The notes under the pieces were generated by a model. It ran no database searches, had not been told where the DNA came from, and saw nothing but the letters and a program-made list of their open reading frames with translations. The translations under genes and the position numbers were made by a program. A stretch of 64,000 nt of DNA, from positions 1 to 64,000 of the IMG/VR virus record IMGVR_UViG_3300040809_000188. One strand, written 5' to 3'. Below, piece by piece: positions 924 through 56,046 of this stretch. This stretch comes from a virus. The number at the start of each line of letters is the position of its first letter. The first letter of the stretch is position 1.

Positions 924-977
924 TTGACATTCTTCTCTACTTATGGTAAGGTGATTCGTTAATGAGAAATAGAGGTA
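924..977 (+). promoter_or_regulatory. Early sigma70-type promoter with GTGATTCG motif and AGAGGT RBS
   Basis: TTGACA 924-929, TG-N-TAAGGT 947-952, GTGATTCG 951-958. Confidence 0.75.
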
Positions 978-981
978 ACTT

Positions 982-2719: not shown

Positions 2720-2777
2720 TTGACATATGTAAACCATTATGATAGATTCAACAAGTAATGAGAGAGGTGATTCGCAA
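2720..2777 (+). promoter_or_regulatory. Early promoter with conserved leader
   Basis: TTGACA 2720, TAGATT 2743, GAGAGAGGTGATTCGCAA directly before ATG 2778. Confidence 0.8.
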
Positions 2778-5012: not shown

Positions 5013-5080
5013 TTGACATCATCGTTGTATTATGTTAGATTCAACAAGTAATGAGAAAAGTGATTCGCAACTGAGAGAGG
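5013..5080 (+). promoter_or_regulatory. Early promoter with conserved leader
   Basis: TTGACA 5013; TAGATTCAACAAGTAATGAGA identical to 2743 copy; GTGATTCGCAA 5060-5070. Confidence 0.8.
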
Positions 5081-5087
5081 ATTTGTT

Positions 5088-6239
5088 ATGCGTAAACTGA
5101 ACAAGACCCAGAAAGCATTTGTAGCGTTGGCCCAGAAAGAGTTTGGTTCAACAGTCACACGGGCTGAAGCAATCAAACTTGCTGAGAACAATGGATTTCG
5201 CCGTCCAACATGGCTCCTCAACAAGCCAGACTATCGTGTAGGTCACGGTATGTATGAACTGCCTGGCGTTGCTAAAGTAGAAAAGCCAGAGGCAGAAGTT
5301 GCACTTCTTCCAAACACACTTGTCACAAACATGAATGTCGAAACTGAATCATTCACTGAGAACTTGATTCCAGAAGAAGATGAGTTGTTTGTTCCATTTG
5401 GTGATTTCAAAAAGATTAAGCAAATCATCAAATCAGGTATGTTCTATCCAGTTTATGTGACAGGTCTGTCAGGTAATGGTAAGACATTCGGTATCGAACA
5501 GGCTTGCGCTCAAGCAAAGCGTGAAGTTATCCGTATCAACTTTACAGTTGAGACTGATGAAGATGACTTGATTGGTGGCTTCCGTCTAGTAAACGGTGAA
5601 ACCAAGTTCTTCAAAGGTCCAGTTATTAAAGCCATGGAGCGTGGCGCCGTTGCACTGCTAGATGAACTTGATCTCGCTAATCCAGCGAAGGTTATGTGCT
5701 TGCAGTCAATCCTCGAAGGCAAAGGCTACTTCATCAAGAAGACTGGTGAGTATGTCAAGCCTGCTCCGGGCTTTACGATCATCGCCACTGCCAATACCAA
5801 GGGTAAAGGTTCTGACGATGGTCGTTTCATCGGCACTAACGTGATGAATGAAGCGTTTCTTGAGCGTTTCCCTATCACTGTCGAGCAGTCTTATCCACCA
5901 GTTGCTACTGAGAAAAAGATTCTCGGTAAAGTGTTTGATGATCTCGGCATCGATGTGATGGACAACTTTGAAGAGTTGCTTGTTGACTGGGCTGACATCA
6001 TTCGTAAGACTTACTATGATGGTGGTGTCGATGAGATTATCTCAACACGGCGTCTGGTCCACATTGCAAAAGCATACAGCATTTTCGGTGATCGTATGAC
6101 TGCGATTGAGATGTGCATCAATCGGTTCGATGAAGATACTAAGACCTCGTTCCGTGATCTCTACACTAAGGTAGATGCTGATGCTGAGTGTGAGGAAGAG
6201 TTGAAGAAGTCAGAGTTGACTGAAGAAGTACCATTCTAA
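5088..6239 (+). CDS. cobS: CobS-like MoxR-family AAA+ ATPase
   Basis: Walker A GLSGNGKT, Walker B LLDE, ATANTKG, NEAFLERF. Confidence 0.88.
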   Translation: MRKLNKTQKAFVALAQKEFGSTVTRAEAIKLAENNGFRRPTWLLNKPDYRVGHGMYELPGVAKVEKPEAEVALLPNTLVTNMNVETESFTENLIPEEDELFVPFGDFKKIKQIIKSGMFYPVYVTGLSGNGKTFGIEQACAQAKREVIRINFTVETDEDDLIGGFRLVNGETKFFKGPVIKAMERGAVALLDELDLANPAKVMCLQSILEGKGYFIKKTGEYVKPAPGFTIIATANTKGKGSDDGRFIGTNVMNEAFLERFPITVEQSYPPVATEKKILGKVFDDLGIDVMDNFEELLVDWADIIRKTYYDGGVDEIISTRRLVHIAKAYSIFGDRMTAIEMCINRFDEDTKTSFRDLYTKVDADAECEEELKKSELTEEVPF

Positions 6240-21147: not shown

Positions 21148-21215
21148 TTGACATTTTCCGAAAATATGGTATAAATGTAAAGTAAGTTAGTTAAGTGATT
21201 CGCAATGAGAGAGGT
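21148..21215 (+). promoter_or_regulatory. Early promoter with conserved leader
   Basis: TTGACA 21148, TATAAA 21170, GTAAGTTAGTTAAGTGATTCGCAATGAGAGAGGT. Confidence 0.8.
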
Positions 21216-21221
21216 TTGATT

Positions 21222-21575
21222 ATGGCTTATATTTCACAAGAACAGAAGAAAGAACTTGCCCCTGCTATTAAAGCGGTTCTCAAGAAGTACAATATGAAGG
21301 GTAGCATCGGCATTGACAATCACAGTAGTCTGCGTGTTCGTGTTACTGAAGGCCCTTTGAAGTTTGATGATTATGAGCAAGTCAACACTTACCACATTGA
21401 AAAGTTCTACGGTAAAGACACTAAAGAAACTGCTTTTCTGACTGAACTTGTCGCCGCTATGAAAGGCACTAAGTGGTACAACAACAGCGACTACATGACT
21501 GACTATTTTGATGTCGCTTATTGGATTGATGTTCATGTTGGTCGGTGGGATAAAGCCTACCAGCAGACTGTTTAA
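21222..21575 (+). CDS. Early hypothetical protein
   Basis: MAYISQE..., NSDYMTDYFDV motif; start moved to ATG after RBS. Confidence 0.8.
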   Translation: MAYISQEQKKELAPAIKAVLKKYNMKGSIGIDNHSSLRVRVTEGPLKFDDYEQVNTYHIEKFYGKDTKETAFLTELVAAMKGTKWYNNSDYMTDYFDVAYWIDVHVGRWDKAYQQTV

Positions 21576-22611: not shown

Positions 22612-22670
22612 TTGACAAACTAGTCAACATTTGCTATAAAGTAAGTATAGTGATTCGCAAAGAGAGAGGT
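22612..22670 (+). promoter_or_regulatory. Early promoter with conserved leader
   Basis: TTGACA 22612, TGCTATAAA 22632, GTAAGTATAGTGATTCGCAAAGAGAGAGGT. Confidence 0.8.
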
Positions 22671-22676
22671 GAAGAA

Positions 22677-23021
22677 ATGAACGAAGTAATGACCCAGAAA
22701 ATCGAAAAGTTGTTTGACGCTATTACTAAAGATTACGAAGATTGGGCCCGCCGTGCAAACATTAAACGCCGAACCGCTCAAGATTTTCGTGACAGCCTTG
22801 GTGTGATCGTAGGTAATAAATACATCAAAGTTACAGAGAACGGTAATCAGATGCGTGTTTGGGGTTTTGTTGTCAACACCGAAACTGATAAGAAGTTCAA
22901 GTTTGGTGACATTCTCATGGCGGCTGGTTGGAAAGCGCCTGCTCGTAACACTGCCCGTGGCAATGTTATGACTGAAGAGTTCAGTGCGGTTCAGTGGACT
23001 GGACCTGCTTACTTGCGCTAG
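22677..23021 (+). CDS. Conserved early phage protein
   Basis: GDILMAAGWKAPARNTARGN...WTGPAYL motif. Confidence 0.8.
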   Translation: MNEVMTQKIEKLFDAITKDYEDWARRANIKRRTAQDFRDSLGVIVGNKYIKVTENGNQMRVWGFVVNTETDKKFKFGDILMAAGWKAPARNTARGNVMTEEFSAVQWTGPAYLR

Positions 23022-23185
23022 TCGCAAGCGTGATACGAGGCGGTCGGTCACGAAAATAGAATCAAAAAGCCCTGCCTAGGAAGTGGGTTGCCGTCTAAGT
23101 TTCAGAGTTTGGTTTGCCCGGCTACCTCTCTCTCATTAACTTACAAGCCGGGCGGTGGGCAGTTTATAAAACGTAAGACCCACCA
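23012..23185 (+). ncRNA. Candidate structured antisense sRNA targeting early-gene leaders
   Basis: GC-rich multi-stem intergenic region; GCCCGGCT/AGCCGGGC stem displays loop ACCTCTCTCTCATTAACTTACA complementary to the leader consensus. Confidence 0.65.
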
Positions 23186-23202
23186 TTTCATAAGAGGTAA
23201 AG

Positions 23203-23607
23203 ATGAAAAAGATTGTATTTGGATTGCTTGGTGTATGCGCTTTTGCTACAACAGCATATGCAGAAACCGTCACCGATCATTATAAAACGGTTATCAATCG
23301 CACACCATATCAAGTTGAAGTATGCACAGATAAGCAAGTTTCTGGTGATAAGACTGGTGACATGCTCAAAGGAGCAATCATTGGTGGTATCATAGGAAAC
23401 AATATCAAAGGAGAAGAAAATGGCGGTGCTATGGGCGCTATTCTCGGCGGCATGCTTGGTCATTCAAATAGCACTGCTACTGGCGGCACTGCAAGGCAAT
23501 GCGAAGTAGTAACACGCTATAATGAAGAAGCGATTCAAGTTTATTCGCATTCTACAGTGACATTTTATGATGATGGTAAACAATATACAGTGAGGTTTCA
23601 GAAATGA
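23203..23607 (+). CDS. Exported glycine-zipper 2TM protein
   Basis: Signal peptide; GAIIGGIIG...GAILGGMLG. Confidence 0.8.
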   Translation: MKKIVFGLLGVCAFATTAYAETVTDHYKTVINRTPYQVEVCTDKQVSGDKTGDMLKGAIIGGIIGNNIKGEENGGAMGAILGGMLGHSNSTATGGTARQCEVVTRYNEEAIQVYSHSTVTFYDDGKQYTVRFQK

Positions 23608-24313: not shown

Positions 24314-24396
24314 GCGCCTATGGTGAAATTGGTAGACACGCTAGATTTAGGTTCTAGTGCGAAAGCGTGGGAGTTCGAGTCTCTCTAGGCGCACCA
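24314..24396 (+). tRNA. tRNA-Leu(TAG)
   Basis: GCGCCTA/TAGGCGC acceptor, long variable arm, TTCGA, CCA. Confidence 0.95.
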
Positions 24397-24402
24397 AATT
24401 AT

Positions 24403-24478
24403 TCCCTGTTAGTTCAGTTGGTAGAACGGTGGACTGTTAATCCATATGTCGTTGGTTCGAGTCCAGCACAGGGAGCCA
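24403..24478 (+). tRNA. tRNA-Asn(GTT)
   Basis: TCCCTGT/ACAGGGA, loop CTGTTAA, CCA. Confidence 0.95.
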
Positions 24479-24481
24479 TTT

Positions 24482-24557
24482 GCTGAAGTAGCACAGTTGG
24501 TAGTGCAGTTGATTTGTAATCATCAGGTCGGGAGTTCGAGCCTCTCCTTCAGCACCA
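24482..24557 (+). tRNA. tRNA-Thr(TGT)
   Basis: GCTGAAG/CTTCAGC, loop TTTGTAA, CCA. Confidence 0.93.
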
Positions 24558-24558
24558 T

Positions 24559-24632
24559 GCGGTTATGATGTAAGGGTAGCCTATCTCGTTGCCAACGAGA
24601 ATGTGAGAGTTCGATTCTCTCTAACCGCTCCA
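24559..24632 (+). tRNA. tRNA-Gly(GCC)
   Basis: GCGGTTA/TAACCGC, TCTCG-TTGCCAA-CGAGA, CCA; weak D stem. Confidence 0.9.
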
Positions 24633-47133: not shown

Positions 47134-47178
47134 AAAAGAGGTCTTGACACGGGCCTCTTTTTTTGATATAGTGATTCG
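47134..47178 (+). terminator. Terminator fused to early promoter
   Basis: AAAAGAGGTC/GGCCTCTTTT stem with TTGACA 47144 in loop; TATAGT 47167; GTGATTCG 47171. Confidence 0.7.
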
Positions 47179-47181
47179 TAA

Positions 47182-47361: not shown

Positions 47362-47438
47362 GGCCTCGTAACTCAACTGGATAGAGTAACGGCCTTCTAA
47401 GCCGTAAGTTGCAAGTTCGAGTCTTGCCGAGGTCGCCA
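47362..47438 (+). tRNA. tRNA-Arg(TCT)
   Basis: ACGGC-CTTCTAA-GCCGT, TTCGA, CCA. Confidence 0.95.
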
Positions 47439-47440
47439 AT

Positions 47441-47514
47441 AGAGGTATGGTGTAGTGGAAACACGACAGTCTCCAAAACTGTAAACTGAGGTTCGATTCC
47501 TTGTACCTCTGCCA
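47441..47514 (+). tRNA. tRNA-Trp(CCA)
   Basis: AGAGGTA/TACCTCT, ACAGT-CTCCAAA-ACTGT, CCA. Confidence 0.95.
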
Positions 47515-51865: not shown

Positions 51866-52060
51866 ATGTATCCAGGCCACGACATGCGTGAAGGACACGA
51901 AGATTATATGAAACGCCGAATCAAAGAGATGGAAAAGACTACGATTCGGCGTTTAGCGACTTCTGACACACCAAACAGAAGTCCAGAAGCAGATTCTATC
52001 ACGCAAATACTTGAAAGGATTGAGAAAAAAATCGACAAATTAATTGAAAAAGGGGGTTGA
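51866..52060 (+). CDS. Hypothetical protein
   Basis: AGGAG RBS. Confidence 0.6.
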   Translation: MYPGHDMREGHEDYMKRRIKEMEKTTIRRLATSDTPNRSPEADSITQILERIEKKIDKLIEKGG

Positions 52061-52114
52061 CATCAATCCCTTTTCTGCTATGATGTAACAGTAACAAAGA
52101 GAGGTGATTCGCAA
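52047..52114 (+). promoter_or_regulatory. Terminator-embedded early promoter with conserved leader
   Basis: Hairpin AAAAGGGGGTTGA/TCAATCCCTTTT; TTGACA 52057, TATGAT 52079, AGAGAGGTGATTCGCAATG. Confidence 0.8.
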
Positions 52115-55980: not shown

Positions 55981-56044
55981 CATATATCTCTCCAGTTGCT
56001 ATAAAGTATATGTAAGTTAGTTAGTGATTCGCAAAGAGAGAGAG
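55977..56044 (+). promoter_or_regulatory. Early promoter with conserved leader
   Basis: TTGACA 55977, TGCTATAAA, TGTAAGTTAGTTAGTGATTCGCAAAGAGAGAGAG. Confidence 0.8.
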
Positions 56045-56046
56045 AC

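What the first reader, a model, noticed from the sequence alone, without database searches (positions are those of the whole stretch)
23116..23153. Candidate phage sRNA whose hairpin loop is antisense to the shared leader/RBS of the early regulon
Seen: a perfect GC-rich 8-bp stem (GCCCGGCT 23116-23123 / AGCCGGGC 23146-23153) displays the 22-nt loop ACCTCTCTCTCATTAACTTACA, whose reverse complement is TGTAAGTTAATGAGAGAGAGGT. That is nearly a consensus of the 5' leaders of the early promoters: GTTAATGAGA+AGAGGTA (958-977, nuclease-dam), TAATGAGAGAG (2756, vWA), TAATGAGA/TGAGAGAG (5049/5072, cobS), GTAAGTTA+AATGAGAGAG (21182/21204), AGAGAGGT (21580, 21840, 52098), GTAAGT+AGAGAGAGGT (22641/22661), TGTAAGTTA+GAGAGAGAG (56011/56036). 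In several leaders the two matched halves flank the GTGATTCGCA insert, which could loop out. Core and late genes mostly use AGGAG-type SDs and would match poorly. On the minus strand there is no TTGACA upstream and no start codon after the SD, so this is not simply an inverted leader. Inference: a trans-acting multi-target sRNA, transcribed from early promoter 22612, blocks ribosome binding on early mRNAs as a negative-feedback early-to-middle switch. I do not know of such a system described in T4-like phages.
Basis: partly seen in the sequence, partly recalled or inferred. Interest (0 to 1): 0.88.

Follow-up and report, generated by a model that had tools for sequence, protein, structure and literature searches.

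The report
Conserved phage RNA hairpin antisense to early leaders
A small conserved RNA hairpin in an uncultured marine T4-like phage carries a loop that can pair with the ribosome-binding leaders of the phage's own early genes, so it is a candidate new RNA regulator of early translation that has not yet been tested experimentally.

Summary
It is not a chance structure. The same element lies 3' of homologs of one early gene (114 aa, weak DUF7717 match) in two clades of marine myophage contigs. There are five stem versions, 70 of 70 stem cells pair, and 6 of 8 pairs show changes on both sides. The loop start ACCUCUCUC and a 5' flank are invariant. Nothing in Rfam matches.

In the window the four best loop duplexes on the whole + strand are early leaders, including the upstream gene's own leader. 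Shuffles of the whole loop (0 of 300) or of its 3' half alone (1 of 300) rarely do as well. Three related lineages repeat this. In one lineage the loop's 3' half and the leader of an orthologous gene changed together.

In the second clade the loop does not match the local leaders. The window has no terminator after the hairpin. RNA-library contigs only cover the region.

Verdict: a new structured RNA family (about 0.9). That it pairs with early leaders and represses them is plausible (about 0.45). Action in trans and an early-to-middle switch are untested.

The parts
22612..22640 (+). Early sigma-70-type promoter (TTGACA, 17 nt, TATAAA) that drives the 114-aa gene and the RNA element behind it
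22641..22676 (+). Own 5' leader of the 114-aa gene, which contains GTGATTCGCA and the AGAGAGAGGT SD. It is the best duplex partner of the loop in the whole window (-25.2 kcal/mol)
22677..23021 (+). 114-aa early gene with a weak DUF7717 match (E 4e-05, below the Pfam cut-off) and a phrog_5014 match. The RNA element follows its homologs in both clades
23022..23105 (+). Upstream segment of about 84 nt, nearly invariant in the window, L308, L327 and L008-type contigs but absent from L003-type and clade 2. Its function is unknown
23106..23115 (+). 5' flank AGTTTGGTTT. The TTTGGTTT part is invariant in all members found, but the searches that found them required it. It may be a processing or binding site (inference)
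23116..23153 (+). Hairpin H1: 8-bp stem (23116-23123 with 23146-23153) and a 22-nt loop (23124-23145). The loop starts with the invariant ACCTCTCTC
23154..23184 (+). Hairpin H2 (GGTGGG 23154-23159 with CCCACC 23179-23184, 19-nt loop). It is conserved in L308 and L327 and replaced by other hairpins in L003-type, L008-type and clade 2. It is not a terminator
23203..23607 (+). Downstream 134-aa gene with a signal-peptide-like N-terminus and a weak glycine-zipper match. It is not linked to the RNA in clade 2
21181..21221 (+). Leader of the 117-aa gene that begins MAYISQEQ (21222-21575). It is a candidate target (-22.7) and the leader that co-varies with the loop in the L008-type lineage
56006..56046 (+). 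Early leader and candidate target (-24.4)
951..981 (+). Early leader of the gene at 982-1848 and candidate target (-22.4)
2731..2777 (+). Early leader of the 742-aa gene, a weaker candidate target (-18.3)
5046..5087 (+). Early leader of the gene at 5088-6239, a weaker candidate target (-17.2)

Best explanation
The hairpin is the core of a previously undescribed structured RNA that is carried in the 3' untranslated or intergenic region behind an early gene of marine T4-like phages. The stem holds out a long pyrimidine-rich loop. The invariant 5' part of the loop (ACCUCUCUC) is complementary to the GA-rich Shine-Dalgarno run of the phage's early leaders. In this clade the variable 3' part is complementary to the 5' end of the same leaders, so the conserved GTGATTCGCA block of the leader would loop out.

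The most likely mechanism is base pairing of the loop with these leaders, including the leader of its own mRNA and that of the gene beginning MAYISQEQ. That pairing would cover the ribosome-binding site and lower early translation as the RNA accumulates.

Shown: the structure, its conservation, the complementarity, and one co-variation between loop and leader. Inferred: that pairing happens in the cell, that it represses, and that the RNA acts in trans, whether after processing or as part of the long early transcript.
For: Structure. There are five stem versions, and 70 of 70 cells pair. Six of 8 pairs changed on both sides. None of 500 shuffles reached the observed percentage paired or the covariation score, and slid registers pair at only 22-46% (one search gave the same on 7 rows). 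In clade 2, H2 and H3 also show compensatory changes (9 of 36 predicted pairs). Their G-U pairs would be A-C on the other strand, which puts the RNA on the + strand.

Loop constraint. The first 9 loop bases are invariant while the stem varies.

Complementarity in the window. The top 4 of all + strand sites are early leaders. Shuffle counts were 0 of 300 (whole loop), 1 of 300 (3' half) and 0 of 300 (5' half). The six best of 93 ORF start regions are all promoter-proximal (p 0.007).

Replication in relatives. In L050 the top 3 sites are 3 leaders, and in L131 the top site is a leader. In L327 the top 3 sites are leaders.

Co-variation. The MAYISQEQ protein is 98% identical between the window and the L008-type contigs. 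Yet its leader and the loop's 3' half both differ, and each loop prefers its own leader. The window loop gives -22.7 on its own leader and -16.7 on the L131 leader. The L131 loop gives -22.0 on its own and -18.7 on the window leader.

Transcription context. An early promoter lies at 22612. Contigs from RNA libraries bridge the gene end into the element (22936-23126) and run from the loop into the next gene (23130-23280).
Against: The clade-2 loop is nearly invariant, but local leaders are not its best partners. A leader was the top hit in 1 of 6 loci and 1 of 5 loci. The clade-2 MAYISQ homolog's leader pairs at only -8.9. Clade-2 loops even pair slightly better with clade-1 leaders than with their own.

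Any CU-rich loop pairs with GA-rich SD runs, and the leaders are one repeat family, so the independent evidence is small: one co-variation event and four related lineages.

The 196-nt region as a whole does not fold better than shuffles (z -0.83, 47 of 200 shuffles fold as well).

No terminator or promoter delimits an sRNA in the window. The RNA-library contigs are low depth and give no strand or ends, and DNA carry-over is possible.

One of the five measures, pairs with a change on both sides, was reached by 60 of 500 shuffles.
Confidence: 0.45

Rival explanations
1. The hairpin is a conserved RNA element, but its real ligand is not the early leaders. The invariant ACCUCUCUC loop start, which resembles an anti-Shine-Dalgarno sequence, would bind something common to both clades. 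Candidates are a host or phage pyrimidine-binding protein, host mRNAs, or another RNA. On this view the match to clade-1 leaders is mostly a by-product of their GA-rich SD runs.
For: Only the flank, the stem geometry and ACCUCUCUC are shared by both clades. The clade-2 loop is almost invariant over many contigs, although the local leaders pair poorly with it. The element always follows the same gene family, which might encode a partner.
Against: In the window the 3' half of the loop adds specific complementarity to the leaders (1 of 300 shuffles). That half co-varies with an orthologous leader. No protein partner was identified. The model of the 114-aa protein was too poor to use (mean pLDDT 58).
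Confidence: 0.25
2. The element acts only in cis on the transcript that carries it. It could be a 3' end structure that stabilises or ends the early mRNA, a processing site, or a partner that closes the mRNA by pairing its 3' region with its own 5' leader.
For: It lies directly behind the stop codon of the same gene in both clades. In clade 2 it is followed by H2 and a covarying GC-rich hairpin with a U-rich tail, so it forms the 3' UTR of a short early mRNA. The best duplex site in the whole window is the leader of its own mRNA (-25.2).
Against: H1 itself has a 22-nt loop and no U tract, and no terminator was predicted in the window before 24684. A mere stabiliser would not need an invariant loop. 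Other leaders pair nearly as well as the own leader. In L131 and L327 the top site is another gene's leader.
Confidence: 0.2
3. The loop is a relic: a fragment of an early-leader cassette that was inserted in inverted orientation during cassette-mediated shuffling, and it has no function of its own.
For: The loop reads like the reverse complement of a leader with its central block deleted. PeSL-type cassettes are reported to mediate recombination in T4-type phages (PMC4122927, figure legends read; PMC2839356, abstract only).
Against: The stem keeps perfect pairing through compensatory changes at 6 of 8 positions in five versions. The loop start is invariant across two clades whose flanking protein is only 42-45% identical. 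G-U pairs in the clade-2 helices point to selection at the RNA level.
Confidence: 0.05

Closest known systems
c4 antisense RNA of phages P1 and P7
   Same: It is a phage-encoded RNA whose exposed loops pair with the ribosome-binding region of target messages in the phage's own genome. It is cut out of a longer transcript rather than made from its own unit. (Passages of the review PMC12197685 were read; the processing detail is recalled.)
   Different: There is no sequence or structure match: no Rfam family, c4 included, was hit. c4 belongs to temperate phages and controls one immunity operon. Here the candidate targets are a repeated family of early leaders in a lytic T4-like phage, and a single 22-nt loop would bridge two leader segments.
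Bacterial multi-target sRNAs with C/U-rich loops that cover Shine-Dalgarno sequences (for example RNAIII, RsaE, RoxS; recalled, not from a call)
   Same: A pyrimidine-rich loop on a stable stem is complementary to purine-rich SD runs of several messages.
   Different: Those are host sRNAs with their own promoter and terminator. This element is phage-borne, lies in a 3' UTR or intergenic position, and in the window has no terminator. There is no homology.
PeSL promoter-terminator cassettes of T4-like phages (PMC4122927)
   Same: The candidate targets look like PeSL-type cassettes: a stem-loop, a sigma-70-like early promoter, a conserved leader, an SD and a start codon, repeated before many early genes.
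   Different: The hairpin is not a PeSL. It has no promoter and no start codon on either strand. It is antisense to the transcribed part of such cassettes.
T4 RegB endoribonuclease and RegA translational repressor (review PMC3014915, seen only in the search listings; their functions are recalled)
   Same: The proposed outcome is the same: early messages are shut off through their ribosome-binding sites.
   Different: Those are proteins. Here an RNA would do the job by base pairing. No homology is implied or tested.

Membership tests
Trans-acting base-pairing sRNA that occludes ribosome-binding sites | A discrete small transcript with defined 5' and 3' ends (own promoter or processing, and a terminator) | tested here: inconclusive
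   The window has no terminator between 20900 and 24684 and no promoter next to the hairpin. Clade 2 has a covarying GC hairpin with a U-rich tail after H2. RNA-library contigs cover the region but show no ends or strand.
Trans-acting base-pairing sRNA that occludes ribosome-binding sites | An exposed seed complementary to the translation initiation regions of targets, beyond chance | tested here: met
   for the window; for L050, L131 and L327. Not met in clade 2.
Trans-acting base-pairing sRNA that occludes ribosome-binding sites | Seed and target change together across relatives | tested here: inconclusive
   There is one clear event, the L008-type loop with its MAYISQEQ-gene leader, with a swap penalty of 3-6 kcal/mol either way. 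Across the two clades the signal is asymmetric. There are too few independent lineages.
Trans-acting base-pairing sRNA that occludes ribosome-binding sites | Repression of targets when supplied in trans | not testable with these tools
   This needs reporter or infection experiments.
P1/P7 c4 antisense RNA family | Match to the curated RNA family model | tested here: not met
   No Rfam family reached its threshold in the window. Permissive scans of the element gave only weak eukaryotic snoRNA, miRNA or lncRNA noise.
Intrinsic (rho-independent) terminator | GC-rich stem, short loop, and a U tract directly after the stem | tested here: not met
   H1 has a 22-nt loop and is followed by GGTGGG. H2 is followed by ATTTCAT. 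The scan found no terminator here.
PeSL early promoter cassette | Stem-loop followed by -35/-10 boxes, an SD and a start codon | tested here: not met
   Neither strand has a promoter hexamer pair at the hairpin or a start codon after the SD-like run. The defining features are taken from the figure legends of PMC4122927.
tmRNA or tRNA (the same slot holds a tmRNA gene in some relatives) | Detection by ARAGORN or by the Rfam tRNA/tmRNA models | tested here: not met
   ARAGORN and Rfam find only the six tRNAs at 24314-24632 and 47362-47514.

The most novel reading that the evidence does not exclude
This is a phage-encoded RNA that represses a whole regulon. One hairpin loop would bridge the 5' end and the Shine-Dalgarno run of the mobile early-promoter cassettes. 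Made from an early transcript, it would shut off translation of the phage's own early genes. That would be an RNA counterpart of T4 RegB/RegA that co-evolves with the cassettes it controls.
Probability: 0.3. Interest if true: 0.8.

Novelty: new variant of a known kind. Interest (0 to 1): 0.6.

Why it matters
Regulatory RNAs of lytic phages that act on the phage's own messages are hardly known. The review read here in passages (PMC12197685) mainly lists temperate-phage and prophage RNAs. My searches found no description of this element or of an RNA acting against leaders in T4-like or marine myophages.

If the pairing is real, it gives a simple testable model for how abundant uncultured marine myophages time early gene expression. 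It would also link that timing to the repeated promoter cassettes that shuffle their genes. Even if the target turns out to be different, this is a compact RNA motif supported by covariation that could be added to RNA family libraries.

Tried and rejected
Kissing loop or pseudoknot between the H1 loop and H2. By eye, 5-8 nt of H2 are complementary to the loop's 3' part in the window, L003-type and clade 2. Against shuffled loops this is not significant in the window (77 of 300), L308 (78), L327 (171) or L008-type (127). It is significant only in L003-type (9 of 300) and two clade-2 variants (4 and 3 of 300); five other clade-2 variants gave 35-65 of 300. I rejected it as a general feature.

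Cis pairing of the loop with the SD of the downstream gene at 23203. This falls in the same window test and is not above shuffles.

H2 loop as a late promoter. The TATAAAAC-like run is not conserved in L308 or L327. Rejected.

Known RNA families. None were found.

tRNA or tmRNA remnant. None was found.

Thermodynamic stability of the whole 196-nt region. It is not better than shuffles on either strand.

Protein partner. The AlphaFold model of the 114-aa protein had mean pLDDT 58, and its conserved C-terminal part was below 50, so I made no fold search.

Close phage genomes. megablast found only tRNA matches. Methylophilales phage Melnitz has the 134-aa gene but no hairpin upstream of it.

The 14-base loop pattern alone mostly gave chance hits. 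Three unrelated hairpins (L117, L119, L122) were set aside because their context differs. L326 from the metagenome scan was also set aside for its unrelated context.

Among the 80 best loci of the protein family, only 1 (L241, the same contig as L008) carries the element.

RNA runs. Parts of the stretch have no RNA contig (22550-22660, for example), but with contigs at this depth that says nothing.

Supplementary files of papers were not opened. They could hold transcript maps for Melnitz-type phages that I did not see.

Full report
WHAT IS THERE

The window is a 64-kb piece of a 72-kb viral record. All long ORFs are on the + strand, the GC content is 39.6%, and there are six tRNA genes. Its proteins relate it distantly to marine T4-like myophages such as Methylophilales phage Melnitz and Pelagibacter phage Mosig.

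The hairpin is exactly as described: GCCCGGCT (23116-23123), a 22-nt loop (23124-23145) and AGCCGGGC (23146-23153). It lies in a 181-nt gap between two genes. The upstream gene (22677-23021, 114 aa) has an early promoter at 22612 and a weak DUF7717 match. The downstream gene (23203-23607, 134 aa) looks like a secreted glycine-zipper protein. A second hairpin, H2, follows at 23154-23184.

IS IT MORE THAN CHANCE?

As a fold of the whole 196-nt region it is not. The z-score is -0.83 on the + strand and -0.51 on the - strand. The evidence comes from relatives.

I first searched IMG/VR with the downstream protein (48 loci). I then searched with a flank-plus-loop-start pattern (59 stretches). Both searches found the same element directly behind homologs of the 114-aa gene.

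- Clade 1 holds the window, an L003-type phage (2 contigs) and an L008-type phage (3 contigs).
- Clade 2 holds 9 contigs (L173, L187, L192, L193, L195, L196, L205, L209, L222).

One metagenome scan gave 29 stretches. Of these, 28 carry the element in the same context and 1 (L326) is unrelated. They include a near-identical strain (L308) and a further clade-1 lineage (L327).

The element is restricted. Of the 80 best loci among at least 585 homologs of the protein, only 1 has it.

STRUCTURE AND STRAND

The stem occurs in five versions. On 9 distinct hairpins all 70 cells form standard pairs, and 6 of 8 pairs changed on both sides. No shuffle in 500 reached the observed percentage paired or the covariation score. 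Registers slid by 1-3 columns pair at only 22-46% (one search gave the same picture on 7 rows). One measure, the number of pairs with a change on both sides, was reached by 60 of 500 shuffles, so the strength lies in the perfect pairing and not in that count.

The first nine loop bases and the flank TTTGGTTT are invariant while the stem varies. The searches required both the flank and the loop start, so their invariance among what was found is partly built in. The independent protein-based search did recover the L003 and L008 types with the same motifs.

In clade 2 the element continues with a second hairpin and a GC-rich hairpin with a U-rich tail. Nine of 36 predicted pairs there show compensatory changes. 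Several G-U pairs would be A-C on the other strand, so the RNA is read from the + strand. There, the element is the 3' UTR of a short early message.

In the window no terminator is predicted between 20900 and 24684, so the hairpin sits inside a longer early transcript that runs into the tRNA cluster.

No Rfam family matches.

THE LOOP AND THE LEADERS

The early genes of this phage carry a repeated cassette: a small stem-loop, TTGACA, a -10 box, a leader with GTGATTCGCA, a GA-rich SD and a start codon. This is the PeSL type of cassette described for T4-like phages (PMC4122927, figure legends read).

- A duplex scan of the loop along the whole + strand puts four early leaders on top: 22641 (the 114-aa gene's own leader, -25.2), 56006 (-24.4), 21181 (-22.7) and 951 (-22.4). 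The next site scores -19.1.
- For 12 leaders chosen by promoter and ORF alone, the mean energy of -14.6 was reached by 0 of 300 whole-loop shuffles, 1 of 300 shuffles of the 3' ten bases and 0 of 300 shuffles of the 5' twelve bases. Both halves therefore count, not only the anti-SD run.
- Among 93 ORF start regions the six best are all promoter-proximal (p 0.007).

The leaders are copies of one family, so these hits amount to one match to a consensus and not to many independent matches.

RELATIVES

In the L003-type contig the three best sites are three early leaders. In the L008-type contig the best site is a leader. In L327 the three best sites are leaders.

The most telling case is the gene for a 117-aa protein beginning MAYISQEQ. 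Its protein is 98% identical between the window and the L008-type phage. Its leader has a GA run where the window has GTAAGTTA, and the L008-type loop has a second CU run where the window has TTAACTTAC.

| Loop | Own leader | Other lineage's leader |
|---|---|---|
| Window | -22.7 | -16.7 (L131 leader) |
| L131 (L008-type) | -22.0 | -18.7 (window leader) |

Each loop prefers its own leader. That is one compensatory event between loop and target.

WHAT SPEAKS AGAINST A GENERAL ANTI-LEADER ROLE

In clade 2 the loop is almost invariant, but local early leaders pair at only about -16. They are the top site in 1 of 6 loci and 1 of 5 loci. The clade-2 homolog of the MAYISQ gene has a leader that pairs at -8.9. 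Clade-2 loops pair on average no better with their own leaders than with clade-1 leaders. Either the clade-2 target is something else, or the part common to both clades (ACCUCUCUC) has a ligand other than the leaders.

EXPRESSION

Six runs on record as RNA hold parts of the stretch. I laid four of them. Their contigs cover 22841-23071, 22936-23126 (bridging the stop codon into the element) and 23130-23280 (from the loop into the next gene). These are low-depth contigs without strand or ends, and DNA carry-over cannot be excluded. They fit co-transcription with the flanking genes and do not show a discrete sRNA.

READING

A new structured RNA family is well supported (about 0.9). That its loop pairs with early leaders and lowers their translation is the best single mechanism (0.45). 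Whether it does so in trans after processing or within the long transcript is open.

The rivals are:
- another ligand for the conserved CU-rich loop (0.25);
- a purely cis role at the 3' end of the early message, including pairing with its own leader (0.2);
- an inert inverted cassette fragment (0.05, disfavoured by the covariation).

The closest known system in mechanism is the c4 antisense RNA of P1/P7, whose loops pair with a ribosome-binding region (PMC12197685, passages read), but the element is not a member of that family.

My literature searches found no description of this element.

Noticed in passing
L192 6463-6931 (-), L222 1445-1779 (-), L038 2649-2997 (+): ARAGORN calls permuted (two-piece) tmRNA genes in these related phage contigs, with tags ANDNWYYEEYRLAA, ANDNWYYEDYRLAA and ANENFALAA. 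In L038/L039 and in L025-L032, tmRNA-like sequence fills the slot upstream of the homolog of the 134-aa gene, where the window has the hairpin element. ARAGORN did not call a tmRNA in L025.
   Followed up: partly
window 2767, 5060, 21195, 21830, 22650, 52104, 56024 (and 47171 with one mismatch): The 10-mer GTGATTCGCA occurs in seven early leaders (13 matches at one mismatch or fewer, against 3.9 expected). In two leaders it directly follows GAGAGG, so that GAGGTGAT reads like an extended SD. Similar TGATTCG motifs appear in leaders of more distant phage contigs (L254, L300, L303). Its role is unknown.
   Followed up: partly
window 23022-23105: This non-coding segment of about 84 nt behind the stop codon differs at only 1-3 positions between the window, L308, L327 and the L008-type contigs, although the flanking 114-aa protein is only 55% identical to the L008-type protein. 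It is absent from L003-type and clade 2. It could be a recent transfer or a constrained extra RNA domain.
   Followed up: partly
L173, L187, L193, L196, L209 and other clade-2 loci, leaders after the -10 box: Clade-2 early leaders carry AGTTTGG or AGTTTGA about 8 nt after the -10 box (11 of 13 distinct leaders). AGTTTGG is also the start of the invariant flank just 5' of the hairpin. It may be a shared processing or binding site.
   Followed up: no
window 47144-47180 and 52057-52090: In these early promoters the -35 box sits in or next to a small GC hairpin followed by a T run. This is the promoter-terminator (PeSL-like) arrangement.
   Followed up: no
L195 2212-2290, and L309 at about 5809: One clade-2 early leader (ATAGAGGTTGAGAAGGTG) is strongly complementary to the clade-2 loop (-20.6, the top site in both loci). 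It precedes a 77-aa ORF with a GTG start. It may be a genuine clade-2 target.
   Followed up: partly
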